NCBI GenBank assembly: GCA_050633245.1 | Contig: JBOEGD010000007.1 | Coordinates: forward strand, 187,624 to 251,623 | Origin: Calditrichia bacterium | GTDB lineage: Bacteria > Calditrichota > Calditrichia > RBG-13-44-9 > J075 | Length of the DNA stretch: 64,000 nucleotides | Reading direction: 5' to 3' | Part shown: piece after piece, positions 29,131-46,003 of the stretch | Position numbering within the stretch: the first letter of the stretch is position 1 | Layout: every line of letters starts with the position of its first letter | Position numbers and translations under genes: made by a program | The notes under the pieces: generated by a model | The model's database searches: none | What the model was told of the DNA's origin: nothing | What the model saw: the letters and a program-made list of their open reading frames with translations, nothing else

Positions 29131-30063
29131 TCACTGTAGATAATTATTGATTTCCTCGTCGTTCCAGCGACGGAAGATTTGCCGCATTCTGGCGCGTTTT
29201 AGCCAGAAGACCAGGAAGAAGATTCCAATTATAGCTATCCATAAAAGACTGTCAAAGTTCAAAAGCAAATACCAGCGATATTTTTCACGTAAATCGCGAA
29301 ACCAATAAATCTCGAATTCTCGCTCAGAATAGCCGCTGGCAAGCCTCAGAGCCGCTGGCCATCCATGCACTTTTACGTTGTTGTGAAATACAGGCAGCTG
29401 CGTTATACCGCCCATGCACTCGATTAAAAAACTGGCCGCCGAAAATGAATAGATATATGCCATTTGTATTTGCTGAACCTGAAAATTGCGCAAGCTATCT
29501 ATATCTGATAAAAACATGACGTCTTTACTCTGAAGATCAGCCGAGATTTTCCCGGCTTCGACAAGATCAATACTCTCTCCGCTTAAGATCTCAGACAAAC
29601 CTTCATTGTACCACAGCGGGATCTTCGCACTACCAAACAGACGATCGACGAAAAGATGAACCAATTCGTGGCGCAAATCTTCCTGAAGCGAGCGAATAGA
29701 TCCCTTCCACCCGGGACTTTTTACCAGAATAATACGTCGGCCGGTAAGATAGGCTGCAGCTGCCCACTCCGGAATCGTGAGGTTTTGATGCTGGTAAAAC
29801 TGGCCGGCGTTGGCGGCAATAACGATGCGATTGGAATCCGGTAACTGATAATCAAAATAGCTTTCCAATAGCGGTTGCTGCTGATCGAGGATGCGTGTAA
29901 CCAGCTGAACGGTGGCAGGATTTTTGGCATAGTCCACAATGGTAAACGGTGGGTGTTGCACCACAACGGGTTTGCAAAACACCGGAGTGGAAAGAAGAAA
30001 AATAGCGAGGCATATCAGAAATGCTCGTACTGAAGCCGGGCATTTGGCATCGATACTATTCAT
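29131..30063 (-). CDS. Membrane-anchored peptidase MA-like (gluzincin) protein
   Basis: Signal peptide, HELVH (HExxH) and PLWYNEGL, C-terminal TM segment. Confidence 0.75.
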   Translation of the reverse strand: MNSIDAKCPASVRAFLICLAIFLLSTPVFCKPVVVQHPPFTIVDYAKNPATVQLVTRILDQQQPLLESYFDYQLPDSNRIVIAANAGQFYQHQNLTIPEWAAAAYLTGRRIILVKSPGWKGSIRSLQEDLRHELVHLFVDRLFGSAKIPLWYNEGLSEILSGESIDLVEAGKISADLQSKDVMFLSDIDSLRNFQVQQIQMAYIYSFSAASFLIECMGGITQLPVFHNNVKVHGWPAALRLASGYSEREFEIYWFRDLREKYRWYLLLNFDSLLWIAIIGIFFLVFWLKRARMRQIFRRWNDEEINNYLQ

Positions 30064-30122
30064 AAGACGTCAGTTCTCCTGCCACCTATTCTCCTCATAA
30101 GCGATCTCAACCATTCGGGAGA

Positions 30123-30237
30123 GCGACTTGCCAGTGTAGTGCTCGTAACGAATAGTACGCTTCGGCTGCCAGCCTTCACTGGTCGTTGGTCAGACATCTC
30201 GACAGGTCGAGATAGTAAATTACTCCCAACAAGTCAC
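30123..30237 (-). ncRNA. Candidate structured RNA of unknown class
   Basis: Nested helices GUGACUUG/CAAGUCGC, UUGG/CCAA, AUCUCGAC/GUCGAGAU, CCAGUG/CACUGG, GGCU/AGCC fill the intergenic gap. No match to riboswitch consensus sequences I know. Confidence 0.4.
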
Positions 30238-30248
30238 GAATTGGCGAC

Positions 30249-31616
30249 CTACTTATTCCTCAACTCGGCTTCATACGCCTGAACCTGCTCACGCGCTTGA
30301 TCTTCATCGACATAGTAGAAGATAAGACCTCCGGAGATAAAGAACAGCAGGATAGCTGCAAGGCTCCAGCGGCTTGCCAGGTTGGCAATTTCCTTCTCCG
30401 TCCCGTTGTAGTCTACAACATCCGTCAGTAAATATCTGACGAACAGTACGACAACCCCCATGATCAGCGGACCGATAAACACCGCAGACTTACCAATCAT
30501 ATTATAAAAGCCGAAGAATTGCCCGGCCTGATCCTTAGGTATTATTCGTGAATAAAATGAGCGACTAAGCGCCTGAATACCACCTTGGGTAAGTCCAACC
30601 ATTATTGCCAACAGATAAAATTCCGTTTTGCTTTTCATCTGAATGCCAAGGACGGTAATAGACATGTAGATAATAATACCGAGAAAAATTGCCTTACGCA
30701 CGCTCCAGGATTCACCCAGTTTCGCATAAATAATAGCTGCCGGAAAGCCGACAAACTGCACCAACAGCAGTGCTGTTATCAGGTCTTCCTGTCCAAAACC
30801 AAGCGATAAACCGTAATCGACTGCCATTCGAATAATGGTATCAACACCGTCGATGTATAGGAAATAAGCTAAGAGGAAAAGAAAAGTCATCGGTAACTTC
30901 ATTACATTGCGCAGCGTTTCGGCCAACTGTCCAACCCCTTCACGAACGGCCTGACGATAACTCATCCCGCCCTGCTCTGCCTTTTCTTCCTCTACCCAAA
31001 ACGCAAGAAACAGCGTAAACAGCCCCCACCAGAGCGCCACACTTATGAATGCGAGACGGACAGCCATCACACCATCACTGATTCCGAATGCTTCCGGGAA
31101 TAAATACATTAACACATTAATCAGGAACAGCAAGCCTCCACCGAGATAGCCAAGTGAGAATCCAAAGCCAGAAACAAAATCGACATCTTTTTCGCCGGTT
31201 ACCGCCGGAATCAGCGAGTCGTAGAACGAGTTACCTGCTGAAAATCCAACCCCGCCAATAACATAGAGCAGGGCTGCCAATTGCCACTGCCCTTGCTGCA
31301 CGGTAAAAAGCGCAGCGGTCATCAACACACCCAAATAAGCGAAGAACAGCAAGAATTTCTTGCGTGCAGATGCTTTATCAGCAATGGCGCCGAGAACAGG
31401 TGCCAGTAGCAGCACAATCAGGCCGGAGAGCGAATTGGCAAAGGCAAGATAGGCAGAGCTGTCGTTGACATCGACACCCGACGCCCAATAGCTTTTAAAA
31501 AAGATTGGAAAAAAACCGGCAATCACTGTGGTTGCAAAAGCTGAGTTCGCCCAGTCGTAAAGAGCCCATCCGTAAACGGGTTTACCGAGACTTTTCAGAC
31601 GTTTAAAAGAATTCAT
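30249..31616 (-). CDS. MFS transporter, UMF1/Atg22-like family
   Basis: WALYDWANSAF, FYDSLIP, GYLGGG, QALSRS, FFGFYN..GK. Confidence 0.88.
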   Translation of the reverse strand: MNSFKRLKSLGKPVYGWALYDWANSAFATTVIAGFFPIFFKSYWASGVDVNDSSAYLAFANSLSGLIVLLLAPVLGAIADKASARKKFLLFFAYLGVLMTAALFTVQQGQWQLAALLYVIGGVGFSAGNSFYDSLIPAVTGEKDVDFVSGFGFSLGYLGGGLLFLINVLMYLFPEAFGISDGVMAVRLAFISVALWWGLFTLFLAFWVEEEKAEQGGMSYRQAVREGVGQLAETLRNVMKLPMTFLFLLAYFLYIDGVDTIIRMAVDYGLSLGFGQEDLITALLLVQFVGFPAAIIYAKLGESWSVRKAIFLGIIIYMSITVLGIQMKSKTEFYLLAIMVGLTQGGIQALSRSFYSRIIPKDQAGQFFGFYNMIGKSAVFIGPLIMGVVVLFVRYLLTDVVDYNGTEKEIANLASRWSLAAILLFFISGGLIFYYVDEDQAREQVQAYEAELRNK

Positions 31617-31700
31617 GGAGGTCTGTATCCGAAAGTGGTCGCTTGTGAGAATCGTATTTGCATCGACAATATAAATGACTTGTGACGATTACCAACAGAC

Positions 31701-31740
31701 AAAAAAAAAGCCTTTGCAAAAACTAGCTTGCAAAGGCTTT
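31701..31740 (-). terminator. Intrinsic terminator ending the mglA operon
   Basis: AAAGCCTTTGCAA/TTGCAAAGGCTTT stem with T-tract on the - strand. Confidence 0.9.
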
Positions 31741-31765
31741 AAATATCTTTTCAGGAAGGAAAACT

Positions 31766-32350
31766 CTACAGCTGTTTTTGAACATGCTGCACAACGCCAT
31801 TAATAATCGATTTCAGGGTATCGAAAACGCCGGTTCCTTTTATTCCAACGGCTTCAAAATGAGGCACGTTAAAAAAGTTTAACTTCTTTTGGAGAATATC
31901 CAAAGACTCGGTATTCGGCAGGTCGCGCTTATTATATTGGATAACCCAGGGAAAGGTTTCCAGTGAATATCCCATCGACATAAGATTGTGTTCAAGATCT
32001 AGCAGGGTCTCAATATTGCCTTCCATACGGTCTTTTTGAGAGTCAGCAACGAACACAACACCGTCTACACCATTCAGAATAATCTTACGGCTGGAGGCAT
32101 AATAGACCTGCCCTGGTACCGTGTATAGATTAAACTTTGGTTTTTTACCCTTTATTCTTCCTACTTCGATCTGCATAAAGTCGAAAAAGATGGTACGGTC
32201 TTCTTTTGTTTTCAAAGTAACGAGCTCGCCGGTCAGGGAGGGATCCAGCTTAGTATGAATATACTCGAGATTGGTTGTTTTACCGCTCATTCCCGGGCCG
32301 TAATACACAATCTTGAGATTTATTTCCTGTAAAGCCCAATTAATAAACAT
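31766..32350 (-). CDS. mglA: MglA small Ras-like GTPase (Myxococcus/Thermus group 1)
   Basis: KIVYYGPGMSGKTTNL (G1), DRTIFFDF (G2 with Arg finger), LYTVPGQV (G3), YNKRD (G4). Start placed at ATG 32350. Confidence 0.95.
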   Translation of the reverse strand: MFINWALQEINLKIVYYGPGMSGKTTNLEYIHTKLDPSLTGELVTLKTKEDRTIFFDFMQIEVGRIKGKKPKFNLYTVPGQVYYASSRKIILNGVDGVVFVADSQKDRMEGNIETLLDLEHNLMSMGYSLETFPWVIQYNKRDLPNTESLDILQKKLNFFNVPHFEAVGIKGTGVFDTLKSIINGVVQHVQKQL

Positions 32351-32416
32351 AATAATTCTCACTTCAATTTTAGAGTTTCAGCTCCATTAAATTCCAGGCG
32401 ATCCGGCAGAAGAAGC

Positions 32417-32926
32417 TTACTTAAATGATTCATCCAGCATGTCGCCGAGCATGCTGCTGAAATCCTGATCAATAATTTTACCGGCATCATCACCTGCTTC
32501 AGAGGTATCGAATACAGTAAGCAGATTTTGTATGGCTTTCTTGGTATAGATTCGAACGAGTCCCAGCGTTACGCTGACGTCGAATACGACGACCAGAAAG
32601 AAGTTATCACCAACATTAGACAGATATACATTGCGCTTTTCACCTTCGTGAAACAGCAGCTTAAACTTTGCATCTTCTCCAACCAGTTTCGCCATCTCGG
32701 ACGTAGCGGCAAAATCACTAGCGGCCAGAGCAGACAAAATAGCGGTGTTAATATCATCTGTATTACCACGCTGGGTAATCAGCTGTCCGCTGATATCGGC
32801 AAGCAAAATAGTCGATGCTTTCGTCTTAGCTGCCAGTTCAGACAGAATTTTTGTTATCTCATCGAACTGCTTAGCAGTTAAAATGATCTGACGACTTCCG
32901 TCTTTCAACTTCTTGACTTGTACCAT
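32417..32926 (-). CDS. mglB: MglB roadblock/LC7 GTPase-activating protein
   Basis: LADISGQLI...LSALAASDFAATSEMAKLVGE...FHEGE...VVVFD..VTLGLVR with C-terminal helix; directly upstream of mglA. Confidence 0.92.
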   Translation of the reverse strand: MVQVKKLKDGSRQIILTAKQFDEITKILSELAAKTKASTILLADISGQLITQRGNTDDINTAILSALAASDFAATSEMAKLVGEDAKFKLLFHEGEKRNVYLSNVGDNFFLVVVFDVSVTLGLVRIYTKKAIQNLLTVFDTSEAGDDAGKIIDQDFSSMLGDMLDESFK

Positions 32927-32954
32927 GATATGAACTCTCCCTGAAATAGGTTGA

Positions 32955-33749
32955 CTAAAAACGGCCTATAGTCGATTTGGTTTTAAGCCGGGTAAGGCTG
33001 GTTTTAAGGCTTTCTTTCATTCTATCGATAGCAACTGCGAGCACCTGTAATTCATTTTTCGCCTTTACTTCAATCGGGGCGTTAAAATTACCCATGCTTA
33101 TCTCGTTTGCCGCCTCTGTTAACTTAATCACTGGTCGTGTCACCTGCACGGTAATCACTGCCAGGGCTACCAGAATAATAATCAGTGTTCCGATGGCAAT
33201 AACGGCACCGATTAAGAGCAGCGTACGATTAATCTGCTCATCGATAAACGATTTTCGCAGTCCAACGCGCACAAATCCGAGTAAACCATCCTTTATAGGA
33301 TAGGTAATATCGTATACTTCGCGCTCCTGTACTTTGTTTGGGGTCACCGAATACACTTCGCCGCTTGAGAAATCATAGTTCTCATAGATAGCGTTCGTCT
33401 CTGGCCCTGAAGACAGTTCCGCCGGAAGCTGCCCATTATAAGTGTCGGAAACGACTGCATAATCTGCATCTACTATCAATATATATTCATTACTTAGATA
33501 GTATCGGTATTTTTCAAGAATTTTCTTAAGTCCGACAACATCTTCTTCAATTAACTTTTCAGCGGCGAGCTCAGCTATACTCCCGGCGATAATTCTTCCC
33601 TGCTCTTCGAGGGATTTTTGCAGGGTATCGCCCAGAAAAGAAGAGGTAACTGCGATGATCACACCGCTAAAGACAATTGCACCAATCAAAATGTAAAGTG
33701 TAATCTTAAAGCGCAAATTGTTGAACAATCCTGTTGACTCTGCCATCAA
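32955..33749 (-). CDS. Two-TM sensor with HAMP domain and no cytoplasmic output domain
   Basis: TM1, about 140 aa extracytoplasmic domain, TM2, HAMP (TRPVIKLTEAANEISMGN...NELQVLAVAIDRMKESL), then a stop after a short tail. Confidence 0.85.
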   Translation of the reverse strand: MMAESTGLFNNLRFKITLYILIGAIVFSGVIIAVTSSFLGDTLQKSLEEQGRIIAGSIAELAAEKLIEEDVVGLKKILEKYRYYLSNEYILIVDADYAVVSDTYNGQLPAELSSGPETNAIYENYDFSSGEVYSVTPNKVQEREVYDITYPIKDGLLGFVRVGLRKSFIDEQINRTLLLIGAVIAIGTLIIILVALAVITVQVTRPVIKLTEAANEISMGNFNAPIEVKAKNELQVLAVAIDRMKESLKTSLTRLKTKSTIGRF

Positions 33750-34222
33750 ATCAATCCCTTTAGTTTTTGTAACATCTCTCGTTGAAACTCTATTCGTTTT
33801 TCATCATTGGAAATTTCCATGGTCAGCAGCTCGACCAGCTGTGGTAGCTGCCGTTTATCCAGATTGGCGCGGCTTCGCTTTAACTCACGCAGCATGTCAT
33901 CTACCAGGATTGCCGCCACCGGGCCAAGATAGTAGGTTAAGCGATACTCCAGTTCAGAAAATAGTTCGGCTGATACGTACGGATCGTTTCCATTGCTTTC
34001 CACCAGCTCGAGTAATCCGGCTTTTTCAAGTCGTTCAAAAAGCTCATGAGTCTCATCCATATTCAGTGCGAGGATTTCGCCAATCTGGCTCACGCTCTTT
34101 TCACCATTAAGCTGAGTAACAATAGCCCACTCCAGACTCTTCAGCTTCATTTCCGATGGCGAACGCTTGCTGTTTACGCGGAAGACCATGTTATCGTGGA
34201 TCGTTATGCCTGCCACGCTCAC
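33746..34222 (-). CDS. Hypothetical protein: winged-helix-like domain plus helical C-terminal domain
   Basis: EWAIVTQLNGEKSVSQIGEILAL...LFERLEKAGLLELV (wHTH pattern); LTYYLGPVAAILVDD... helical bundle. 4-nt overlaps on both sides. Confidence 0.7.
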   Translation of the reverse strand: MSVAGITIHDNMVFRVNSKRSPSEMKLKSLEWAIVTQLNGEKSVSQIGEILALNMDETHELFERLEKAGLLELVESNGNDPYVSAELFSELEYRLTYYLGPVAAILVDDMLRELKRSRANLDKRQLPQLVELLTMEISNDEKRIEFQREMLQKLKGLI

Positions 34223-34668
34223 TTCCCTTCCCGCATATTTTCCAGCATTATCTTCTCTACTTCATCGAGCCGAGCAGAATTTATATTGGTAAATTTCTGT
34301 TCGGGAAGCTTGCGAAGCGTCCTGCGCCATTTTTTCCCGTTGTCAATATCGTGTATCGCCACGTTCATTGCCATACGAATATGAGCAATTTCTACGGAAA
34401 GGCGTGCTATCACCGTCACATATAAGCGGGAGTGACTCCTAACGAAGACTAAACCGCGGTCGAATGGTAGTACTAATTCATCCATATCATATCGTAAATA
34501 CTCCAGCAAGCCAAAAATATGCTGAAAGGTTTCACCGGTTTCAACGAATACGCTGGGATTGTATTTCGGCGTATTCCATGAGTCGATAATCTGATTGCGA
34601 TTATCGTAAACCACCACAGCTTCGATGCCGTTAATTGCGATGAGTTCAGAAAATGCGTCTGTAATCAA
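34219..34668 (-). CDS. Hypothetical protein, probable divergent roadblock/LC7 fold
   Basis: INGIEAVVVYDNRNQII...ELVLPFDRGLVFVR...YVTVIA...VEIAHIRMAM follows the roadblock helix/strand pattern; translationally coupled. Confidence 0.6.
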   Translation of the reverse strand: MITDAFSELIAINGIEAVVVYDNRNQIIDSWNTPKYNPSVFVETGETFQHIFGLLEYLRYDMDELVLPFDRGLVFVRSHSRLYVTVIARLSVEIAHIRMAMNVAIHDIDNGKKWRRTLRKLPEQKFTNINSARLDEVEKIMLENMREGK

Positions 34669-35693
34669 AGTTTTATCCCCCGAAAGACCTGCCCCACCAG
34701 CTTTTGTGGGTCCAGCCGGGTAAGCTCTACATCGTAGCGATTTGCCAATTGCAGCACATCTTCGCTGATTTTGGCTAGATTAATACGTCTTGCTCGCCAG
34801 GTCGGCAGGCTTTTTAAAACGCGGTTGATTGCAATAACCATCCCTTGAATAAAGGTAGCATTGTGCAGCAGGCGGCGAACGGCGAATTGAGTTGCATTGA
34901 GAGTAATAACGCCACTGCTGGGGCTTAAAAATGGATAGTGATCTGCCAGTTCGGCACTCACCTTACTAAATGCCCCCTCAAAGCGATTCTTGCGAAACTG
35001 ATCGTTAACGAGCTTGCTTAAATAGTCAATCAGTTCTTTCCAAAAGGCCAGATAATTCTGATGCTGCCAGGGAATGAGAAATACATCTTCCTCGACAATC
35101 GTTGTAGGTTTTTTGGCGCGAAAAACTGAGACACTTGGCTGAATCATCTCGCCGATTGACTGAAATTTTTGATATACATTATCGCCCGAGGCCAATTTAC
35201 CGGAATTTGAGACAATCACGGCATCGGCCGGAATTCCTTCCAGATAGTAAACCGTCCCCTGCCCTTTTGTCCCGCTAAACTCTAAATCTACATAACCGGT
35301 TACAGAGTCTTTCTCCAGTAAATCAAAGATCTGACCGAGCGTATAATTACTCAATTCCTGGGCGGTTTTATACACCCGGGACTGAATCGCATATGCAAGC
35401 GCCAGAGCCACTTCGCTATTCAGCGCGTAGACTTCGATGGTCCCATCTTCGTCTTCAGCCTTTTCCATTAGACGAACAACGGCCTTCTCGTTGGTAAGAC
35501 GAACGTCATCTTCCTCTGAGTAAGCCTCGATCATACGTCCCATATCCATCACCAAAACGCCTTCATACTCCCAAAAGGTCAGCTTTACATAGCCACTGAA
35601 GCGGCTTTCTGCCTGTTGTTGAAGCAGCTGGTCGAATTTTGTAAACGACGTGCTGAGATTGCGATGTTTTTCTATACCTTGCGGTAGAAGCAC
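34665..35693 (-). CDS. Hypothetical protein with two PATAN/DUF4388-like (DUF2226-like) repeats
   Basis: Internal repeat FSGYVKL...GVLVMDMGRMIEA and VTGYVDL...GTVYYLEGIPADA. Confidence 0.6.
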   Translation of the reverse strand: MLLPQGIEKHRNLSTSFTKFDQLLQQQAESRFSGYVKLTFWEYEGVLVMDMGRMIEAYSEEDDVRLTNEKAVVRLMEKAEDEDGTIEVYALNSEVALALAYAIQSRVYKTAQELSNYTLGQIFDLLEKDSVTGYVDLEFSGTKGQGTVYYLEGIPADAVIVSNSGKLASGDNVYQKFQSIGEMIQPSVSVFRAKKPTTIVEEDVFLIPWQHQNYLAFWKELIDYLSKLVNDQFRKNRFEGAFSKVSAELADHYPFLSPSSGVITLNATQFAVRRLLHNATFIQGMVIAINRVLKSLPTWRARRINLAKISEDVLQLANRYDVELTRLDPQKLVGQVFRGIKL

Positions 35694-35704
35694 GGTGTTG
35701 CGCC

Positions 35705-36355
35705 TTATTTTAAGCTAACCTGTTTCAGAACTTTTTTAACCATTGTGGTAAACTCCGGCGTAATCACGCGATGGTCGGTTTGCACCACAATCAAGTTGGG
35801 TCGGAATTCGAATATAAAGTAGTAGCCGTCCCGCGTCCGCAGCTTCATAAACTGAAACATTTCGGAATAAAACAGATTCAGCATCTTCTTCAATTTATAC
35901 CAGATAAAGGTAAGTGCCAGAGGGTGAATAGCCTCTATTTTACCTTCTATTACCTGTCCGTTATAGTTTAAAACGAATACATTTTGAACATTTTTAAGAC
36001 CGGAGAGCAGCGCAAACAACTGCCTTGGAATGGGTGCAGTATGGGCTGTCTTCTCATCCATTACTCGCAACCCTTCCAGCACAACCGAATTCCAGGGCTG
36101 CATAATAGTCTGCGTTGGCGCATCGATATCGGCTTCGACCTTGAACTCGCCTTCTTCCAGAGAAAGCAATTCGTGCACAGCGCGTTCACCGACGAACGGG
36201 CCATATTCCGAATGCGTCATCGCGCCATTGGCGAAATAGATGGTGCCGGTTAAATCCATTGCCCGGACTGTCACGCGTGCTTTATTGCGCTCAATACAGT
36301 TTATCTGGATGATATTTGCCAGCCTAAGGTCTTTCAGATTGCCAACGAGGGCCAT
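35705..36355 (-). CDS. DUF4388 (PATAN-like) domain protein with roadblock-like C-terminus
   Basis: GNLKDLRLANIIQ...GTIYFANG..THSEYG..VGERAVHELL..EEGEF...SVVLEGLRVMDE is the DUF4388 pattern. The C-terminal NVQNVFVLNYNGQVI resembles a roadblock fold. Confidence 0.8.
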   Translation of the reverse strand: MALVGNLKDLRLANIIQINCIERNKARVTVRAMDLTGTIYFANGAMTHSEYGPFVGERAVHELLSLEEGEFKVEADIDAPTQTIMQPWNSVVLEGLRVMDEKTAHTAPIPRQLFALLSGLKNVQNVFVLNYNGQVIEGKIEAIHPLALTFIWYKLKKMLNLFYSEMFQFMKLRTRDGYYFIFEFRPNLIVVQTDHRVITPEFTTMVKKVLKQVSLK

Positions 36356-36358
36356 AGG

Positions 36359-36730
36359 TTATCCGAGTATCGTTAATACGTGTTGCTTGAGTTCGTGAAT
36401 ATCAAATGGTTTCTCCACATACCAGTCGGCACCCTTTGCATAGGCATCCTGCTTGCGTTCATCCGAACCATAAGCCGTTATCACCACGGCATGAAGCTCT
36501 TTGTTCAGCGCTTTCAGATGTGCCAGCAAATCGAGGCCATTGAGACCCGGCATAGAGATATCGGTTATCAAAATATCAAACGGGGAGGCTTCATAATGCG
36601 TAATTGCTTCTTCGCTGGATGAAGCGGTAACCACTTCACAGTCTATTGGGGCATTAATAAACGTTTGATAGAGGCTGAAGGTTAGCGTTTCTTCATCATC
36701 TACTATCAACAGGCGTTTTACCTCATTCAT
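36359..36730 (-). CDS. Single-domain response regulator
   Basis: LIVDDE, ITDISMPG (phospho-Asp), ITAYG, KPF; no output domain. Confidence 0.93.
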   Translation of the reverse strand: MNEVKRLLIVDDEETLTFSLYQTFINAPIDCEVVTASSSEEAITHYEASPFDILITDISMPGLNGLDLLAHLKALNKELHAVVITAYGSDERKQDAYAKGADWYVEKPFDIHELKQHVLTILG

Positions 36731-36766
36731 GTCAACATCCTTCTTCAGCGCAATCTTCCGGTAACT

Positions 36767-38002
36767 TTATTGTCTTGCCGGTAATGAGATTGTAAAGCGT
36801 GTACCTTCACCTTCCCTGCTACTTACTTCCAGCGTGCCTTCGTGCTCTTCAACGAGACGATTGCAGATGGATAACCCCAGTCCGGTTCCTTCAGGACGTG
36901 TGGTAAAAAACGGATTAAAAATTTTCTCCAGATGTTCGGGTGCGATTCCGCTGCCGCTATCCGAGATTTCAATGCGTATTATTGGCTGTTTTCCCGAGCG
37001 GGTTACGCCGCCTTTCCATTGCCGACGCTCGAGTGTCAATCGTCTTGCCTCAATAGCAAGAGCCCCACCATCCGGCATGGCGTCGATGGCATTGAGCAGC
37101 AAATTAAGCAGAATCTGCTCCATCTGTCCGCCATCGGCGTAAATCTGTAAACCGGCTTCAATATTTTCCTGCCAGTGAATTGCGTTTTTCTTCATCATCG
37201 CCAACAAGAGCAACCTCACGCCGCCGACCAGCTTCTCTACGCTGTGCTGCTGCATATCCGGACGCGAAGGACGGGCAAATCGAAAAAATTCATTTAACAG
37301 CTTATTTGAGCGATCCACTTCCCGAATTACCCTTTCGAGCAGTCCGCGGCGAGGATCTCCACTGTCGAATTGTTCTTCCAATACCTGTGATGCTGCCTTA
37401 ATTCCAGCCAGTGGATTTCGAATCTCATGCGCTATGCCGGCCGAGAGCTCGCCCAATAACGCCAGGCGCTCCATTCGGGTAACCTGTTCTTTTAACTGCT
37501 GTATCTCGGTAAGATCCCGAAAAGAAAGAATCAAACCTTCGAACCGATTATTATGATCATTTAGTGGAGACGCATTTATGTCTACGCGAATCTCACGACC
37601 ATCGCTGCAGGCAAATGTCGCATCCCAATCATCAATCTTATTGTCCGGCAACAGGGCCTCGGCAAGAAATCGATCGGCCTCTGCTCGTTCGGTAAAAAAG
37701 TTTTGCAGCCGCTTTCCCAACAGCCATTCCGTCTCGCAACCCAATAGCTTCGCAGCATTCTTGTTTGCAAAGGTGATTTCCCCTGCGCGATCCAGAGCAA
37801 GCAGCCCCAAATTAACGTTCTGAATAATGCTTTTGTGAAAATGGTATACCTGGTTTAACAGACGTTGCTGTGGGACAGAATCGCGGTGCGGTGAGCCAGA
37901 ATCCGCCTGCGCCGGTGGACTTGTTTCCTGATCGTTATCCCGGGGCTGCAAATTCAGCAAAGACAATATTTGCTTCTGCTTGTTCAATCGTGATGTCATC
38001 AA
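36767..38002 (-). CDS. Cytoplasmic PAS sensor histidine kinase (NtrB/AtoS-like)
   Basis: PAS (ITFANKNAAKLLG), H-box AHEIRNPL, N-box NLLLNAIDAM, DSGSGI, FFTT, GTGLGL. Confidence 0.93.
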   Translation of the reverse strand: MMTSRLNKQKQILSLLNLQPRDNDQETSPPAQADSGSPHRDSVPQQRLLNQVYHFHKSIIQNVNLGLLALDRAGEITFANKNAAKLLGCETEWLLGKRLQNFFTERAEADRFLAEALLPDNKIDDWDATFACSDGREIRVDINASPLNDHNNRFEGLILSFRDLTEIQQLKEQVTRMERLALLGELSAGIAHEIRNPLAGIKAASQVLEEQFDSGDPRRGLLERVIREVDRSNKLLNEFFRFARPSRPDMQQHSVEKLVGGVRLLLLAMMKKNAIHWQENIEAGLQIYADGGQMEQILLNLLLNAIDAMPDGGALAIEARRLTLERRQWKGGVTRSGKQPIIRIEISDSGSGIAPEHLEKIFNPFFTTRPEGTGLGLSICNRLVEEHEGTLEVSSREGEGTRFTISLPARQ

Positions 38003-38713
38003 TCTGCATTCCCGTTAAAGCACGCTGCCAATATAGAACATTTTTGCTCCAAAATAAACACATTTCTGCGTATTTATAGCGGTTCGATCAGGCAATCAAT
38101 TTGTTGATTTACAGGGTTTTACACTTGCTTTAATAAAAGATTCACCGGTGCCGCCACTACTTTGTAATAGTAGCGTGAGGCTATGGATTGAAACGGAGAA
38201 CATCTTATTCTCATATGATTACTGAATTCTAAACAGATTATGTTGCAAAATATCACACGCAAACCAGCGTTTTTTTTATGTTAAAAATGCAAACTTTAAC
38301 AAATCTCGTTTTTCATGTCATAAATTCTCACATTTATCCGATAATTAAACAGTAAACGCATAAAAAATGCGTAATCAGCGCAACCGGGGTGGATTTATTC
38401 ATTTTTTTTTGTCATATTGCATTCCTGTAACAGATTGACTTTCCCGATAACGCAGACTTCCGCATTAAAAGTGATATAACACTGACAGGATGACGCCCTC
38501 ATCTCGAACAACTGGTTCTTCTCCAGCGTCCTACTGTTATGATGTGTACCTGCTTAAGGGTTATGAAATACGAAAATTTAAATGTGCGCATGCGCATACA
38601 AGTCGGGTATTTGTACGCTAAGTTCATATTGCCTTTGCCCCTAAAGGTGCTGTCTGAACAGCTTTAGCGCATTACTTTTAGTCCGGAAAAACCGGTAGAT
38701 CAGGCAATTCGTC

Positions 38714-40948
38714 ATGAAAGAAAAAGTATTTTCTTCCCTCAACTTACTCCTCGACACTGTAGAAGGTGCAAATCTTCTATTGGAATACTATGCTTCGTTT
38801 AGTAAACGAGTAATGGGCGCACATGATTTCAAAACAATCCTGACCGTCTTTTCCGAAGAGCTAAAGCATATTTACGTCACTCAAAACATTGAAATAATCC
38901 TCTGGCAAAACAATAAGCGCCTGGTAAAGTTTTTATATGACGACACCAAAAAGCGCGTTTACCCTGCTGAAGAGTTTTCACAAAAGAATACGCTCTACAA
39001 CTACGTGCTGGAAAGACAGCAGATAGTACTCACCAATAGCTATGCCAGCTTCTGCGACAATGTTGGCCTTGGAAAAGGCCAGATTAACGCGAGCTCCTGG
39101 TTGGGCATACCTATGAAGGTGCGCGACAAAGTACTGGGTGCAGTGGTTGTCTGGGACCCCACAACGGAACATTATCTGCGGCTACAGGATCGGCACTTCC
39201 TGACGACGGTAACAGATATGGTCAGCTTCGCGATGGAGAACGTCTATCTATCGGATTACATCGTCGAGAAGAGCGATTCCTACAGTATTGTTGAGCTTGC
39301 TCTGCCGACCAAAAAGATACGCAATTCCACAAAAGGTGTGCTCAAACACCTGCATCACGCCATCAGTCGCCAGGAAAATGTGCTCTACAACGGCATCTTC
39401 CTGCGTCCCAGTGAAACCAATCGCTGGCAGTTGCTATCCGAGAATTATGAAAAGCCCATTCTTGGTAAACTGGGAATTCAGTTGCTTAATACGCTTCCAG
39501 CGTTTAACCACGCAAGCACCGAAGAGTCTGATATGTTGATATGGAAGAATACCGACAAAAACAATTTGCTCAATAAAACGCTTTCCGCACCGATGCGAAC
39601 GTTTGGAATTGAGAATGCACTATTCTTTCCTTTTGTCGTAAATCATAGCTATCTCGGCGCTTGGATTATCGCATTTGATGGCAAGACAACGTCCATCTCT
39701 CCCGATCAGCAGCAGTTGTATCAGTTTATTCTGTATATCATGACGCAGCTGATCGAGAAGCAGGCACTGCTTGAGCGCAAGCGCAAGTATGAAGCCTATA
39801 CGCGGCATTTAGAACGCATGAAATCTGTTGGGGAGGTGGCAAGTAGTTCGGCACACCACCTGAACAATGTACTTAGCGTTATTATCGGGAAAGGACAGCT
39901 TCTGCAAAAGAAGCTGGAAGGCACGCCGTATGAACGCGATCTATCGCTAATGTTGCAGGCAGCAGGTGATGGCGCCAATACCATAAGGCGCATGCAGCTG
40001 CGGGATGTGAACGATGTTGTCCCGCATGACGATTCGAAGTTTCTGGTGCTCAACTTCAATAATCTTATTCAGGAAGTCGTCGATATAGCTCGGCCACGGA
40101 TTGAGGCTGAATCGAAAAACCGTGGACTGCACTACGAGATTGCCCTTTCGCTGGGAGACATTAAGCCAGTTAAGGGCGATGCAACAGAATTGCGGGAGAT
40201 TCTTTTTAATCTCATCAACAATTCGATTGATGCCATGCCTCGAGGGGGCAAAGTAGCATTACAGACCACGCTGAAAGACAACAAGGTCATGATCTTCGTC
40301 AGCGATACCGGAATCGGCATCCCGGAAGGCATTCGCGATAAAATTTTCCAACCGTTCTACACCACGAAAGGGAAAAATGGAAATGGACTCGGCCTGAGTA
40401 TTGCACGCGAGGTTATTAGTAAGCATCGTGGTAAAATCTATGTCGATTCTATTCCACAAAAGGGCTCAATATTTATGATAGAGCTTCCCTTTACCAAAGA
40501 CGCACCTATGCCGCACACAAATGAAGACGTGTTGCTTAAACCACTTAATCACCGAATTCTTTTAGTTGAGGATGAAGGCGTCGTTCGCGAAACGGTAGCA
40601 GAGATTCTACAGGATGAAGGCTGCACGGTTATTTCCGCATCGAATGCCAATGAAGCACTCTTGAAATTTCAAAAAATTCAGTGTGATGCCGTATTTACTG
40701 ACCTCAGCATGCCTAACGTTAACGGAATCGAGCTATCGCATAAGCTGAAGAAACTGAATCCCAATATCCCAATATTTATTATTACCGGCTGGAATCAAAT
40801 GGACCCGGCAATGATAACAGCGAATGGCGTTATCGATGGCATTATTCAAAAGCCGCTGAATATCGACAATGTCCGCCAGGAACTTATGCGCATTACGACC
40901 AGCCGCAATGGCAATGGTGTCGCCCAAAAGAATGGTTTTCACGTATAA
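38714..40948 (+). CDS. Cytoplasmic GAF-containing hybrid histidine kinase with receiver
   Basis: GAF (SWLGIPM...LGAVVV), H-box SAHHLNNVL, NSIDAM, DTGIGI, GNGLGL, C-terminal REC (VEDE, FTDLSMP, QKP). Confidence 0.9.
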   Translation: MKEKVFSSLNLLLDTVEGANLLLEYYASFSKRVMGAHDFKTILTVFSEELKHIYVTQNIEIILWQNNKRLVKFLYDDTKKRVYPAEEFSQKNTLYNYVLERQQIVLTNSYASFCDNVGLGKGQINASSWLGIPMKVRDKVLGAVVVWDPTTEHYLRLQDRHFLTTVTDMVSFAMENVYLSDYIVEKSDSYSIVELALPTKKIRNSTKGVLKHLHHAISRQENVLYNGIFLRPSETNRWQLLSENYEKPILGKLGIQLLNTLPAFNHASTEESDMLIWKNTDKNNLLNKTLSAPMRTFGIENALFFPFVVNHSYLGAWIIAFDGKTTSISPDQQQLYQFILYIMTQLIEKQALLERKRKYEAYTRHLERMKSVGEVASSSAHHLNNVLSVIIGKGQLLQKKLEGTPYERDLSLMLQAAGDGANTIRRMQLRDVNDVVPHDDSKFLVLNFNNLIQEVVDIARPRIEAESKNRGLHYEIALSLGDIKPVKGDATELREILFNLINNSIDAMPRGGKVALQTTLKDNKVMIFVSDTGIGIPEGIRDKIFQPFYTTKGKNGNGLGLSIAREVISKHRGKIYVDSIPQKGSIFMIELPFTKDAPMPHTNEDVLLKPLNHRILLVEDEGVVRETVAEILQDEGCTVISASNANEALLKFQKIQCDAVFTDLSMPNVNGIELSHKLKKLNPNIPIFIITGWNQMDPAMITANGVIDGIIQKPLNIDNVRQELMRITTSRNGNGVAQKNGFHV

Positions 40949-45300: not shown

Positions 45301-45899
45301 CCATTGGTTGGTGCATTAGAAGAAGAGGTTATTTCGATAAATCCACCGTTACCATCATTCAGAAACATCTGATTGTCACCAGTGTCTTCATTTACAAAGA
45401 GATCCAGCATACCATCGCGATTAAAATCGCTCCAGCCTGCACCCTGAGTCAGACCGAGAACATTCAGGCCAATCTGCTGATCGACTCGCTCGAACGTACG
45501 ATTTCCATTATTGCGAAAAAGACGGCTATTACTGGAAAAAGAAAAATCCTCAAAGAGGATATCCAAATAACCGTCATTGTCATAGTCACCGAAGACAGCG
45601 CCAAAAATGCTCGAGCCTTCATTAATGCCGGTGCTATTCATAATATTTGTAAAGCTGCCACCATTATTAATATAGAGTCTTCCCGGATGATAAATGTCCG
45701 GAAGCCCGTCATTGTTAAAGTCTGCAACACTACATCCCCAATCGAAACTGTTGTTGCGTGGAGAAAGCTGTATTGACGCATCGGTGAAGGTTTGCGCAGC
45801 AAGCGACAACTGCATTATAACCAACACCACTATAGTGGTGCAGGCGGCAGGCAGTATGTTCCCGGAGCGACTGGAATTTTCGTAACGAAACAGATTCAT
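42390..45899 (-). CDS. Secreted FG-GAP/VCBS repeat protein with two ASPIC/UnbV modules (CRTAC1-like) and C-terminal sorting domain
   Basis: Many DxDxDGxxD repeats, two 'HFGLG/EFGLS...DS..I.W..G' ASPIC ends, QNYPNPFNP...SGIYFYRL CTD. GGAGG RBS before ATG 45899. Confidence 0.88.
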   Translation of the reverse strand: MNLFRYENSSRSGNILPAACTTIVVLVIMQLSLAAQTFTDASIQLSPRNNSFDWGCSVADFNNDGLPDIYHPGRLYINNGGSFTNIMNSTGINEGSSIFGAVFGDYDNDGYLDILFEDFSFSSNSRLFRNNGNRTFERVDQQIGLNVLGLTQGAGWSDFNRDGMLDLFVNEDTGDNQMFLNDGNGGFIEITSSSNAPTNGNSYGMSWGDYNNDGYPDVFIATCNGSPSNSIKHLLRNNGDNTFTDVNYQAGVADSLASWGISWLDYDNDGWLDIFIANTNHGGIQVGRNVLYKNNRDGTFTDMAATAGVQGNTSNSSYATAAADFDNDGWIDIYVGNSNTDHGLYKNQGNGTFTNISGSAGIIEDNHQAVAVADFNNDGWMDVFSAGGPENRLMINNGGTNHWIKITTRGSQSTYHGVGARIDLYTNGMKQIREIRAGDSFCSQNDLLTAHFGLGTVATADSIIVYWPAGAIDRIYDVPADRHIEIREGIGEVAPIRQVDLTFPEDGETIRALDFARFRWDLVGGNGLLGTEMGTSFNLRLQGNGLDTTFSGISDTSFALDLSLLNDGDTYSWMIEATDGFSIVASRELNSFTYEQGAFSSASAGDIGNDQLFSEGGSWADYDNDGDLDLFVANIINGNNLLYENEGNGSFTSVSGIAPVTDGGFSYGSHWVDYDEDGDVDLFVVNGGSSQNQANFLYRNDNGSFVKVTDGPVATDADGSWSAAWADFDLDGDLDLFVANHNQPNALYENLGSGSFTRLSGSVVATGNTPSLGCSWADYNNDGYPDLFVANANFGSGVVNSLYTNNGDGSFTAVTSGNIATDVGNSVGASWADVDRDGDLDLFVTNYFDENNTLYLNNDDGTFTTATGIDPVTDGGLSVGAAFGDFDNDGDLDLAIGDDAVSGQNRLYLGDGFGGFTAVTNQPVVTDVARTNSMTWADYDGDGDLDLFAANGDQAPNELSNFLYENDQVNGNNWITLRVKGQIAPGQAVGTKVRVRARINGEDRWQMQEISTQTGYNSQNSLDVEFGLSNASRVDSVRIEWTSGVVQRIAAVEVNQILEIEEDLALSIDPVEGGIVPDQIILAQNYPNPFNPETVIRFALAQSESVLLEVYNLLGQRVSLLVDEQIAAGSHQITWRATDDTGKPVQSGIYFYRLKAGGQVITKKMTLIR

Positions 45900-46003
45900 G
45901 TGTGAACCTCCAGACATGGATTTAAGTGTCTCTTTATACAGAAAAGGGGCACGCAAACTCCCCTTTTTAAAAGTGTTCTAATGTTCCCGAATAGGAATAG
46001 AAG

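What the first reader, a model, noticed from the sequence alone, without database searches (positions are those of the whole stretch)
31701..38002. Receptor-coupled MglA/MglB small-GTPase operon (conservon/Ragulator-like) - best candidate for an undescribed system
Seen: nine co-oriented genes with 4-nt overlaps (34665-34668, 34219-34222, 33746-33749) or short gaps, closed by one terminator at 31701-31740. The order is PAS histidine kinase > single-domain receiver > DUF4388+roadblock-like > tandem PATAN-like > roadblock-like > wHTH protein > HAMP-only membrane sensor > MglB > MglA. Established: Myxococcus/Thermus MglA-MglB form a GTPase/GAP polarity switch, and actinobacterial conservons (CvnA sensor kinase, CvnB roadblock, CvnC DUF742 wHTH, CvnD GTPase) are proposed GPCR-like modules. 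Inference: this is a distinct, larger module that combines a phosphorelay and a kinase-less membrane receptor with a group-1 MglA switch, possibly controlling cell polarity or type IV pilus direction. I see no RomR/RomX or Frz genes in the window.
Basis: partly seen in the sequence, partly recalled or inferred. Interest (0 to 1): 0.85.

Follow-up and report, generated by a model that had tools for sequence, protein, structure and literature searches.

The report
Sensor-coupled MglA/MglB GTPase operon
A nine-gene operon, kept in the same order throughout the phylum Calditrichota, joins the MglA/MglB cell-polarity GTPase switch to a two-component system, extra roadblock and PATAN proteins, and a membrane sensor that has no output domain, so it may show how outside signals reach this switch.

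Summary
There are nine co-oriented minus-strand genes at 31766-38002, with three 4-nt overlaps, gaps of 3-54 nt and one strong terminator at 31707-31740. Two corrections: gene 7 is not HAMP-only, because it has a periplasmic sCache_3_2 domain; and the "wHTH" protein (gene 6) ends in Pfam DUF8082.

The order HK > REC > PATAN-roadblock > [double PATAN-like] > roadblock-like > wHTH-DUF8082 > Cache-HAMP > MglB > MglA is identical in 30 of 30 Calditrichota loci examined. Gene 4 is optional (24 of 41 genomes). A second small phylum has the module without the kinase. None of 45 mglA loci from other phyla has the full module; most are bare mglB-mglA pairs.

DUF8082 proteins sit next to output-less, HAMP-terminated membrane proteins in four unrelated lineages, with different fusion partners. 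A complex prediction gave weak support (0.55 against a best control of 0.31).

Best reading: a self-contained, signal-regulated MglA/MglB polarity module. The resemblance to the conservon or Ragulator is by analogy only. The PATAN-MglB linkage is already published, but I found no paper on this operon or on the DUF8082-receptor coupling. I rate it a new variant of a known kind, of moderate to high interest.

The parts
38003..38713 (.). Divergent intergenic region upstream of gene 1. The operon promoter presumably lies here, but this is not shown.
   Evidence: There is a 711-nt gap between gene 1 and the divergent 744-aa gene. One promoter-like match lies at 38321-38293, but such matches are no more frequent than in shuffles (17 against 15.3 +/- 3.4).
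36767..38002 (-). Gene 1: soluble PAS histidine kinase (411 aa).
   Evidence: PAS 58-163, HisKA 183-245, HATPase_c 291-410. No hydrophobic segment. The best NCBIfam match, AtoS, is below its cut-off. It is the first gene in 30 of 30 Calditrichota loci and is absent from the second phylum's module.
36359..36730 (-). Gene 2: single-domain response regulator (123 aa).
   Evidence: Response_reg 8-118, E 2.1e-24. DD, D (LITDISMPG), T and K-P positions are visible in the sequence. It is present in all 30 loci and in the second phylum.
35705..36355 (-). Gene 3: PATAN (DUF4388) plus a roadblock-like C-terminal half (216 aa).
   Evidence: DUF4388 5-102 at 57.8 bits. Robl_LC7 113-191 at 15.3 bits, below the cut-off. 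Across the alignment, DUF4388 matches 22 of 22 members and Robl_LC7 matches 13 of 22 (best E 6.2e-5). The C-half profile cross-hits MglB proteins of other phyla. A full-length orthologue is present in 80 of 86 genomes of the phylum.
34665..35693 (-). Gene 4: optional protein with two PATAN-like alpha/beta repeats and a helical C-domain (342 aa).
   Evidence: Weak DUF4388 match at 114-171 (21 bits). The AF2 model (pLDDT 73.3) shows repeats at 20-109 and 119-192 and helices at 212-336. No PDB fold match at E<=0.001. Present in 24 of 41 relatives and missing from 12 of the 30 loci. In another phylum a homologue sits directly upstream of a gene-7-like sensor and mglBA (L054).
34219..34668 (-). Gene 5: roadblock-like protein (149 aa).
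   Evidence: No Pfam hit for the window copy. Robl_LC7 matches at E<=1 in 10 of 19 homologues (best 6.4e-4). The profile hits PDB roadblock proteins 7f8m (E 0.022) and 7yh1 (E 0.15). The profile also hits MglB at 1e-6 in small-database searches. The gene is present in all 30 loci.
33746..34222 (-). Gene 6: winged-helix domain plus DUF8082 (PF26309) four-helix domain (158 aa).
   Evidence: The AF2 model (pLDDT 87.9) has a wHTH at 13-75 and helices at 85-157. Precomputed Pfam PF26309.1 is recorded for the window's own protein and for all 120 listed relatives. Found in 85 of 86 genomes of the phylum. Not DUF742.
32955..33749 (-). Gene 7: membrane sensor with a periplasmic sCache_3_2 domain, a HAMP domain and no output domain (264 aa).
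   Evidence: sCache_3_2 42-175, HAMP 202-249. Hydrophobic segments lie at 12-30 and 172-209, and this is the only membrane protein of the operon. The protein ends about 15 residues after HAMP in all 22 aligned homologues.
32417..32926 (-). Gene 8: MglB (169 aa).
   Evidence: Robl_LC7 at 46.3 bits. Matches M. xanthus MglB 6hjm at E 1.1e-23 and Thermus MglB at E 4e-13. The NCBIfam MglB equivalog scores 81 bits, below its cut-off of 200. Identity is 89-96% within the order and 74-79% across the class and second phylum.
31766..32362 (-). Gene 9: MglA, a group-1-type small GTPase (194 aa from the ATG at 32350).
   Evidence: Matches M. xanthus MglA 6hjh at E 1.1e-68 over residues 2-191. The GxxxxGKT, DRT, TVPGQ and NKRD motifs are visible in the alignment. 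It is the only copy in the genome.
31707..31740 (-). Intrinsic terminator closing the operon.
   Evidence: 14-bp stem (5 GC pairs), 6-nt loop, followed by TTTTTTTGTCT.

Best explanation
The nine genes form one operon encoding a self-contained, signal-regulated MglA/MglB switch.

Shown: the anatomy, the domain content, and conserved gene order across the phylum and in a second phylum.

Inferred mechanism, in five steps:
1. The Cache-HAMP membrane protein (gene 7) senses a periplasmic ligand. Because it has no output domain, it passes the signal by direct contact of its HAMP bundle with the DUF8082 domain of the wHTH-DUF8082 adaptor (gene 6).
2. The adaptor acts on a roadblock platform made of the PATAN-roadblock protein (gene 3) and the roadblock-like protein (gene 5). 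Where it is present, the double PATAN-like protein (gene 4) also takes part.
3. This platform tunes MglB GAP activity, or the localisation of MglA-GTP, much as MglC, RomR and RomY do in Myxococcus.
4. A second, cytoplasmic input comes from the soluble PAS kinase (gene 1), which phosphorylates the single-domain receiver (gene 2). The receiver then acts on the same platform, as FrzX and FrzZ do in Myxococcus.
5. The output is MglA-GTP, most likely setting the polarity or activity of a surface apparatus such as type IV pili.
For: Operon anatomy: overlaps, short gaps and a single strong terminator.

Conserved order: the gene order is identical in 30 of 30 Calditrichota loci from eight families; 28 reach mglA and 2 end at a contig edge. 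The g3 orthologue is present in 80 of 86 genomes of the phylum and g6 in 85 of 86.

Second phylum: REC-g3-g5-[PATAN+g6]-g7-MglB-MglA is found in 3 of 3 loci examined, and g6 in 17 of 20 genomes.

MglA and MglB are bona fide. They are 89-96% identical within the order, while the partner proteins diverge to 23-74%.

Coupling of g6 and g7: the two genes overlap by 4 nt. DUF8082 proteins with quite different N-terminal parts (Ser/Thr kinase, PATAN, PATAN-like) lie beside HAMP-terminated, output-less membrane proteins with different sensor domains in three further lineages. This holds for 3 of 7 out-of-phylum loci and for 7 of 12 loci in one small phylum.

Complex prediction: HAMP dimer plus DUF8082 gave 'weak support', with a score of 0.55 against a best control of 0.31, runs agreeing in at least 97% of contacts, and partner pLDDT of at least 81. 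The mark was reached by 58 of 80 solved complexes and 2 of 110 mismatched pairs in calibration, but at scores of 0.60 or under by only 7 of those 80 solved complexes and by both of the passing mismatches. The counts hold only roughly here because my own alignments were used.

Domain links: PATAN fused to g6 in the second phylum, and PATAN-wHTH genes beside mglBA in 4 of 45 loci from other phyla, tie the PATAN, wHTH and MglAB parts together.

Published context: PATAN-REC regulators bind the pilus motor PilB1 in Synechocystis, and MglA/MglB sort PilB and PilT (preprint 10.1101/2021.06.11.447907, passages read).

Possible targets in this genome: six T2SSE-family ATPases and two flagellins.
Against: No contact between any two products is measured, and the only complex test is weak.

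The roadblock assignments of genes 3 and 5 and the PATAN-like assignment of gene 4 are below Pfam cut-offs. hhalign between the shallow alignments was inconclusive.

DUF8082 lacks an adjacent HAMP protein in 4 of 7 and 5 of 12 loci. One phylum has a gene-7-like sensor with a gene-4 homologue and no DUF8082 (L054).

The kinase is missing from the second phylum's module, so the two-component input may be separable.

The output is unknown. PilM_2 was not found in this genome at E<=1e-5.

The wHTH of gene 6 could be a DNA-binding output instead.
Confidence: 0.55

Rival explanations
1. The module is a transcription-control device. The wHTH of gene 6 binds DNA. The membrane sensor or MglA-GTP holds or releases it, so the output is gene expression rather than polarity. 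This would resemble what was proposed for group 3 MglA systems, and the conservons, which regulate development.
For: Gene 6 has a confident winged-helix fold. Its profile matches MarR, IclR and TrmB-type HTH families weakly. Wuichet and Sogaard-Andersen 2015 describe a conserved REC-like plus wHTH partner of group 3 MglA and suggest transcription control (passage read). PATAN-wHTH genes lie beside mglBA in 4 of 45 other loci.
Against: No HTH family reaches its Pfam cut-off. The best fold matches are all weak (E about 1e-2) and include winged-helix scaffold subunits of GTPase-regulating complexes as well as MntR. The Synechocystis PATAN preprint argues that a DNA-binding role for PatA-type regulators is unlikely. 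DUF8082 also occurs on kinases and PilM without any HTH.
Confidence: 0.2
2. The cluster is two or three independent units that merely travel together: a PAS kinase and receiver pair, a sensor/DUF8082/PATAN cassette, and mglBA. There is no information flow between them.
For: The kinase is absent from the second phylum's version. PATAN-DUF8082 plus HAMP-sensor pairs exist without mglBA nearby (L050, L045). Most mglBA pairs elsewhere stand alone.
Against: The order is identical and the spacing tight, including three 4-nt overlaps, over a whole phylum in which partner proteins have diverged to about 30% identity. The receiver stays with the module even where the kinase is lost. A compact gene4-gene7-mglB-mglA version exists in a further phylum (L054).
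Confidence: 0.12
3. The cluster is a true homologue of the actinobacterial conservon (CvnA-D), that is, the same system in another phylum.
For: The parts list is the same in outline: a sensor with HAMP, a histidine kinase, a roadblock protein, a small wHTH-like protein and an MglA-family GTPase. The roadblock gene directly precedes the wHTH gene, as cvnB precedes cvnC. The gene order of the conservon is recalled from memory and from the abstracts listed.
Against: Gene 6 is DUF8082, not DUF742. The kinase is soluble and separate from the HAMP protein. The LPxR tail occurs in only 3 of 31 homologues. MglA here is the group 1 type with an intrinsic Arg finger, whereas conservon GTPases are group 2. 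PATAN proteins and a receiver are extra.
Confidence: 0.04

Closest known systems
Myxococcus xanthus polarity module (MglA, MglB, MglC, RomR/RomX, RomY, with the Frz chemosensory input through FrzX and FrzZ)
   Same: Both have a group-1 MglA with an intrinsic Arg finger and TVPGQ, and an MglB roadblock GAP with a C-terminal extension. Both add roadblock-type proteins and receiver-domain proteins as modulators, with sensory input through phosphorylated single-domain receivers. The M. xanthus roles are recalled from memory and from the abstracts listed.
   Different: Here all parts are encoded in one operon. In M. xanthus, mglA is not located near its partners' genes (Wuichet 2015). The input is a PAS kinase plus an output-less Cache-HAMP sensor rather than a chemosensory array. 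PATAN-roadblock and wHTH-DUF8082 proteins take the place of RomR, RomX and MglC. I did not search for RomR or RomX because no family model was at hand.
Actinobacterial conservon (CvnA sensor kinase, CvnB roadblock, CvnC DUF742, CvnD GTPase)
   Same: An operon that couples a membrane HAMP sensor, kinase chemistry, a roadblock protein and a small helical or wHTH protein to an MglA-family GTPase. Both have been proposed to be receptor-coupled.
   Different: There is no DUF742. The sensor and kinase are split. There is no conserved LPxR tail. The GTPase is group 1, not group 2. A receiver and PATAN proteins are present.
PATAN-domain regulators and the published PATAN-MglB neighbourhood link (Makarova et al. 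2006; Wuichet and Sogaard-Andersen 2015; Synechocystis PixG/PixE-type PATAN-REC regulators)
   Same: DUF4388/PATAN genes lie next to mglA and mglB. The cyanobacterial members bind the pilus ATPase PilB1 (passages read).
   Different: The published statements say that group 1 and group 5 mglA genes are 'occasionally' near PATAN genes and that neighbourhoods 'vary widely'. Here the neighbourhood is a fixed 8-9 gene unit for a whole phylum, with a PATAN-roadblock fusion, DUF8082 and an output-less sensor that those passages do not mention. The supplementary tables of Wuichet 2015 and the Makarova paper itself could not be read.
Group 3 MglA systems (a conserved REC-like plus wHTH protein with MglA and one or two MglB)
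   Same: A receiver-like fold joined to a winged helix as the constant partner of MglA and MglB. The second phylum's PATAN-wHTH-DUF8082 protein and the PATAN-wHTH genes in 4 of 45 loci look like this partner.
   Different: MglA here is group 1. In Calditrichota the PATAN and wHTH parts are on separate proteins. Homology to the group 3 partner was not tested because no sequence was at hand.
Ragulator/Rag and other eukaryotic roadblock platforms
   Same: Several roadblock-type proteins are encoded with a small GTPase. The MglA profile gives a weak Gtr1_RagA match (22.2 bits) and MglB a weak LAMTOR5 match.
   Different: This is resemblance of parts only. No heterodimer is shown, and two of the three roadblock assignments are below threshold.

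Membership tests
MglA, group 1 (Wuichet and Sogaard-Andersen 2015) | Intrinsic arginine finger next to the G2 threonine | tested here: met
   'kedrtiffdf' aligns with 'tetdrtlffdf' of M. xanthus MglA. The criterion is taken from the passage read.
MglA, group 1 (Wuichet and Sogaard-Andersen 2015) | G3 motif TVPGQ instead of DxxGQ, with P-loop and NKxD | tested here: met
   'lytvpgq', 'gpgmsgktt' and 'ynkrd' are visible in the alignment.
MglA, group 1 (Wuichet and Sogaard-Andersen 2015) | Full-length similarity to characterised MglA proteins | tested here: met
   E 1.1e-68 to 6hjh (M. xanthus) over residues 2-191 and E 1.1e-57 to 3t12 (Thermus).
MglA, group 1 (Wuichet and Sogaard-Andersen 2015) | GTP hydrolysis stimulated by the coupled MglB | not testable with these tools
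   Needs a GTPase assay.
MglB (roadblock GAP of MglA) | Roadblock/LC7 domain, encoded next to mglA | tested here: met
   Robl_LC7 at 46.3 bits (cut-off 23). It lies 54 nt upstream of mglA. E 1.1e-23 to M. xanthus MglB 6hjm.
MglB (roadblock GAP of MglA) | NCBIfam equivalog NF052242 (Thermus-type MglB) above its cut-off | tested here: not met
   81 bits against a cut-off of 200. This model is built for close Thermus relatives.
Conservon (Cvn) | CvnC-type DUF742 protein | tested here: not met
   A PF05331 search of the whole genome at E<=10 gave one weak match elsewhere (contig 26) and nothing at gene 6. Gene 6 carries PF26309.
Conservon (Cvn) | [quoted passage not shown] | tested here: not met
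   The kinase has no hydrophobic segment. HAMP is on a separate protein. LPxR-like tails occur in 3 of 31 homologues.
Conservon (Cvn) | Group 2 MglA-type GTPase (no Arg finger) | tested here: not met
   The Arg finger and TVPGQ are present.
PATAN / DUF4388 (PF14332) | Pfam model above the gathering score | tested here: met
   Gene 3 scores 57.8 bits (cut-off 25), and 22 of 22 homologues match.
PATAN / DUF4388 (PF14332) | The same, for gene 4 ('tandem PATAN-like') | tested here: inconclusive
   21 bits is below the cut-off of 25, and the match covers only 114-171. hhalign to gene 3 gave probability 3.5%. The AF2 model shows two similar alpha/beta repeats, but no solved PATAN structure exists for comparison.
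Roadblock/LC7 (PF03259) | Pfam model above the gathering score, for gene 5 and the C-half of gene 3 | tested here: inconclusive
   Gene 5: no hit for the window copy, and 10 of 19 homologues at E<=1; the PDB roadblock 7f8m matches at E 0.022. Gene 3: 15.3 bits, with 13 of 22 homologues matching (best 6.2e-5). Profiles cross-hit MglB proteins.
DUF8082 (PF26309) | Pfam model match | tested here: met
   Precomputed PF26309.1 is recorded for the window's own protein and for 120 of 120 listed relatives. The nearest Atlas clusters are 96-100% DUF8082. The model is not in the local Pfam copy, so I could not rescore it.
HAMP-only / output-less transmembrane sensor | Two membrane segments around a sensor domain, then a HAMP domain, then the end of the protein | tested here: met
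   Hydrophobic segments at 12-30 and 172-209, sCache_3_2 at 42-175, HAMP at 202-249, and a protein length of 264. The architecture is the same in 22 aligned homologues.

The most novel reading that the evidence does not exclude
DUF8082 is the cytoplasmic docking domain for a widespread class of HAMP-terminated membrane sensors that have no enzymatic output. Together they form a kinase-independent transmembrane signalling route, and its effector is whatever is fused or encoded next to DUF8082. In Calditrichota the effector is a PATAN/roadblock platform that sets the MglA/MglB GTPase cycle, which would make the operon a bacterial receptor-coupled small-GTPase pathway. Elsewhere the effectors are Ser/Thr kinases, BY-kinases or PilM.
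Probability: 0.3. Interest if true: 0.8.

Novelty: new variant of a known kind. Interest (0 to 1): 0.62.

Why it matters
How environmental signals reach the MglA/MglB polarity switch is understood only in Myxococcus, where the partners are scattered over the genome and were found one at a time by genetics. Here a whole phylum keeps the GTPase, its GAP, two further roadblock-type proteins, PATAN proteins, a receiver, a kinase and a membrane sensor in one transcription-sized unit. That unit gives a ready parts list for biochemical reconstitution.

The operon also gives a first functional handle on two uncharacterised elements:
- DUF8082, with 1655 representative proteins in public data and no paper found.
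- Output-less HAMP sensors.

It also extends the PATAN-pilus-motor connection beyond cyanobacteria.

Tried and rejected
- The search for related loci on genome contigs with the gene 3 profile gave no answer three times. I used the genome search and the fetch from genomes instead.
- hhalign between my shallow alignments gave nothing usable: g5 against MglB, g5 against g3, g4 against g3, g3 against MglB and g4 against g6.
- Foldseek against the PDB gave no match at E<=0.001 for the gene 6 or gene 4 models.
- A single-sequence search for longer proteins carrying the gene 6 C-domain found none. The profile search found them.
- Expression: no RNA holder was listed. Three polyA RNA runs of the same label laid 0 reads, which is no test. 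One DNA contig of a close strain covers the stretch with 236 differences in 7201 bases.
- Conservon homology was considered and rejected.
- The kinase's 'LPAR' tail looked like the CvnA LPxR motif, but it is not conserved (3 of 31 homologues).
- The divergent GAF-kinase-receiver gene upstream, and the transporter and peptidase genes downstream, were considered as possible parts of the module. I left them out. The first is kept only within one family. The second pair lies beyond the terminator and is missing from the second phylum's locus.
- PF26309 is not in the local Pfam library.
- The Makarova 2006 paper is not held.
- Supplementary tables were closed.

Full report
**Observation**

The window holds nine co-oriented minus-strand ORFs between 31766 and 38002. 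Three junctions are 4-nt overlaps (34665-34668, 34219-34222, 33746-33749). The other gaps are 36, 3, 11, 28 and 54 nt.

A 14-bp stem-loop followed by a T-run lies at 31740-31707, 25 nt after the mglA stop. Consensus promoter matches were no more frequent than in shuffles (17 against 15.3 +/- 3.4), so they say nothing.

Upstream there is a 711-nt gap to a divergent gene.

**Domain content**

| Gene | Content |
|---|---|
| 1 | Soluble PAS-HisKA-HATPase_c kinase |
| 2 | Receiver only; acceptor Asp and the other signature residues are visible |
| 3 | DUF4388/PATAN (57.8 bits) plus a C-half with sub-threshold Robl_LC7 (15.3 bits) |
| 4 | Sub-threshold DUF4388 only (21 bits) |
| 5 | No Pfam match |
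| 6 | Sub-threshold wHTH matches only |
| 7 | Periplasmic sCache_3_2 domain between two hydrophobic segments, then HAMP, ending about 15 residues later |
| 8 | MglB: Robl_LC7 46.3 bits; E 1.1e-23 to M. xanthus MglB |
| 9 | MglA: E 1.1e-68 to M. xanthus MglA, with P-loop, DRT Arg finger, TVPGQ and NKRD |

Gene 7 is an output-less sensor, but it is not HAMP-only. The MglA motifs are the group 1 criteria given by Wuichet and Sogaard-Andersen (passage read). The genome has a single MglA.

**The unknown proteins**

- Gene 6. An AF2 model from 23 homologues is confident (pLDDT 87.9). It shows a winged helix at 13-75 and a four-helix domain at 85-157. Foldseek found nothing at E<=0.001. The weak top matches are winged-helix subunits of GATOR1/KICSTOR/SEA complexes, and MntR.
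- The C-domain of gene 6 is Pfam DUF8082. The precomputed annotation PF26309.1 is attached to the window's own protein and to all 120 listed relatives, and the nearest Atlas clusters are DUF8082. The model is missing from the local Pfam copy, which is why one search did not show it. No paper in the library mentions DUF8082.
- Gene 4. The model is moderate (pLDDT 73.3). It has two similar alpha/beta repeats and a helical C-domain, with no PDB fold relatives.
- Gene 5. It is roadblock-like on weak but convergent evidence. Robl_LC7 matches 10 of 19 homologues. PDB roadblock proteins match at E 0.022 and 0.15. The gene 5 profile hits MglB at 1e-6 in small-database searches.
- Gene 3, C-half. Robl_LC7 matches 13 of 22 homologues, and the profile cross-hits MglB proteins of other phyla.

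**Conservation within the phylum**

Taxa and source names returned by the tools place the window in Calditrichota.

I fetched 18 loci around gene 4 homologues. I also fetched 12 loci around mglA in genomes where gene 4 was not found.

With profile HMMs at E<=1e-5, all 30 loci read HK > REC > g3 > [g4] > g5 > g6 > g7 > MglB > MglA. Two of them are cut by a contig end after g6.

Gene 4 is optional. It is present in 24 of 41 relatives, and in the 12 loci without it g5 directly follows g3.

Over the 86 genomes held for the phylum:
- A full-length g3 orthologue is listed for 80. Five of the other six are below 90% complete.
- g6 is present in 85.
- MglA is present in 84 at E<=1e-30.

MglA and MglB stay 89-96% identical within the order and 74-84% beyond it. 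The partner proteins fall to 23-74%.

**Outside the phylum**

Among 215 genomes of other phyla sampled by the tool, only one had a full-length g6 match. Its locus reads REC > g3 > g5 > [PATAN+g6] > Cache-HAMP > MglB > MglA, with a TonB-dependent receptor and no kinase upstream.

In that genome's phylum, 17 of 20 genomes have this g6 form. Two further loci from another family of that phylum have the same order.

MglA-like genes (E<=1e-30) occur in 81 of the 215 genomes. I fetched 45 of the 65 listed out-of-phylum loci, from 42 genomes, and dropped mainly long fused forms and second copies. I scanned them with my own profiles:

| Feature | Loci of 45 |
|---|---|
| Full module | 0 |
| DUF8082 | 0 |
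| Gene-7-like sensor | 1 |
| PATAN gene within about 7 kb | 8 |
| PATAN-wHTH fusion | 4 |
| Extra roadblock gene | 4 |
| Kinase or receiver | 7 |
| MglB-like gene adjacent | 42 |

The single locus with a gene-7-like sensor is a compact gene4-homologue > sensor > MglB > MglA unit, with MglA 73% identical.

This fits the published statement that group 1 neighbourhoods vary widely and are only occasionally near PATAN genes. It also shows that the Calditrichota arrangement is a distinct, fixed elaboration.

**The sensor-adaptor pair**

A profile of the gene 6 C-domain found 1655 representative proteins at E<=0.001 among 1.84 billion, and 390 at E<=1e-10. Many carry two to five copies.

Of the 150 best, 59 were 200 aa or longer. 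I scanned 43 of them, dropping 16 near-identical-length forms of about 263 aa. The fusion partners were DUF4388 (7), Ser/Thr kinase (6), BY-kinase-type Wzz/GNVR/P-loop (3) and PilM (1), among others.

In three of them, a membrane protein that ends in HAMP with no output domain lies beside the DUF8082 gene:
- A Ser/Thr kinase-DUF8082 gene is followed 3 nt later by a 294-aa HAMP-ended protein (L048).
- A PATAN-DUF8082 gene overlaps a Tll0287-like-HAMP protein (L050).
- A PATAN-like-DUF8082 gene lies one gene away from a dCache-HAMP protein (L045).

Four of the seven had none.

In the small phylum that holds the kinase form, 7 of 12 DUF8082 loci in 6 genomes have the HAMP-ended neighbour.

The sensor domains and the parts fused to DUF8082 differ between lineages. 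What stays constant is DUF8082 next to an output-less HAMP protein. I read this as direct coupling.

One complex prediction (HAMP 203-264 in two copies, plus gene 6 residues 80-158) gave 'weak support':
- Score 0.55 against a best control of 0.31.
- Runs agree in at least 97% of contacts.
- Partner pLDDT is at least 81.
- By the tool's calibration, a pass at 0.60 or under is more often wrong than right unless the guess was already likely. The calibration counts hold only roughly here because my own alignments were used.

**Mechanism**

Shown: the operon anatomy, the domains, and the conservation.

Inferred: the Cache-HAMP sensor signals through DUF8082 of gene 6 to a PATAN/roadblock platform (genes 3 and 5, and gene 4 where present). 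That platform modulates MglB or the placement of MglA-GTP. The PAS kinase and receiver provide a second input.

The analogy is to MglC, RomR, RomX and RomY, and to FrzX and FrzZ in Myxococcus. Those roles are recalled from memory and from the abstracts listed.

The output is unknown:
- The genome has six T2SSE-family ATPases and two flagellins, but no PilM_2 match.
- The Caldithrix genome paper reports flagellar genes and a type IV pilus cluster and no Bacteroidetes-type gliding genes (passage read).
- PATAN-REC regulators bind PilB1 in Synechocystis (passage read).

I therefore favour control of pilus polarity, but only as an inference.

**Comparison and novelty**

Membership in group 1 MglA/MglB is met.

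Membership in the conservon is not met:
- There is no DUF742.
- The kinase is soluble.
- The LPxR tail occurs in only 3 of 31 homologues.
- The GTPase is the wrong group.

The Ragulator likeness is only a likeness of parts.

The PATAN-MglB link is known. I found no description of this operon, the PATAN-roadblock fusion in it, or the coupling of DUF8082 to HAMP-ended sensors in five full-text searches, nor any mention of DUF8082. Two sources that could bear on this claim could not be read: the supplementary tables of Wuichet 2015, and the Makarova 2006 paper, which is not held.

**Limits**

- There are no expression data.
- The 30 in-phylum loci were chosen by gene 4 or mglA hits, not at random.
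- Related genomes are not independent samples.
- The out-of-phylum sample is sparse: 215 genomes, one or two per family.
- Several domain assignments are below curated thresholds.

Noticed in passing
window 38714-40948 (+): A divergent 744-aa hybrid GAF-histidine kinase-receiver gene lies upstream of the operon. A full-length homologue sits in the same divergent position in 10 fetched loci, all from the window's own family, and not in the other families.
   Followed up: partly
window 29131-31616 (-): An ATG22-like MFS transporter (455 aa) and a peptidase-MA-like protein (310 aa) follow the terminator. One or both are found downstream of mglA in many loci across the phylum, but not in the second phylum's locus.
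   Followed up: partly
G000 contig 7, 317707-318003 (outside the window); also contigs 9, 11, 30: The genome has six DUF4388/PATAN genes. A second PATAN protein of about 365-375 aa is found in nearly every genome of the phylum.
   Followed up: no
window 42390-45956 and 46059-48584 (-): Two large secreted proteins (FG-GAP/ASPIC repeats; LVIVD repeats) carry type IX secretion C-terminal sorting domains.
   Followed up: no
L054 7995-11080: In another phylum there is a compact four-gene unit: a gene-4 homologue (374 aa), a Cache-HAMP sensor (266 aa), MglB and MglA (73% identical). It has no DUF8082, roadblock paralogue or two-component genes.
   Followed up: partly
P0001-P0150: DUF8082 often occurs in two to five tandem copies in one protein. 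It is fused to BY-kinase-type polysaccharide co-polymerases, Ser/Thr kinases and, in one case, PilM.
   Followed up: partly
L050 and L051: Two small genomes of one family share a PATAN-DUF8082 gene followed by aldolase and prephenate dehydrogenase genes. One has a Tll0287-like-HAMP sensor inserted between them and the other does not.
   Followed up: partly
window 31600-38800: A public DNA run holds the whole stretch on one 58.8-kb contig with 236 base differences and 3 indels. All three indels lie in the intergenic region upstream of gene 1 (38497, 38642, 38686). This is a close strain.
   Followed up: no
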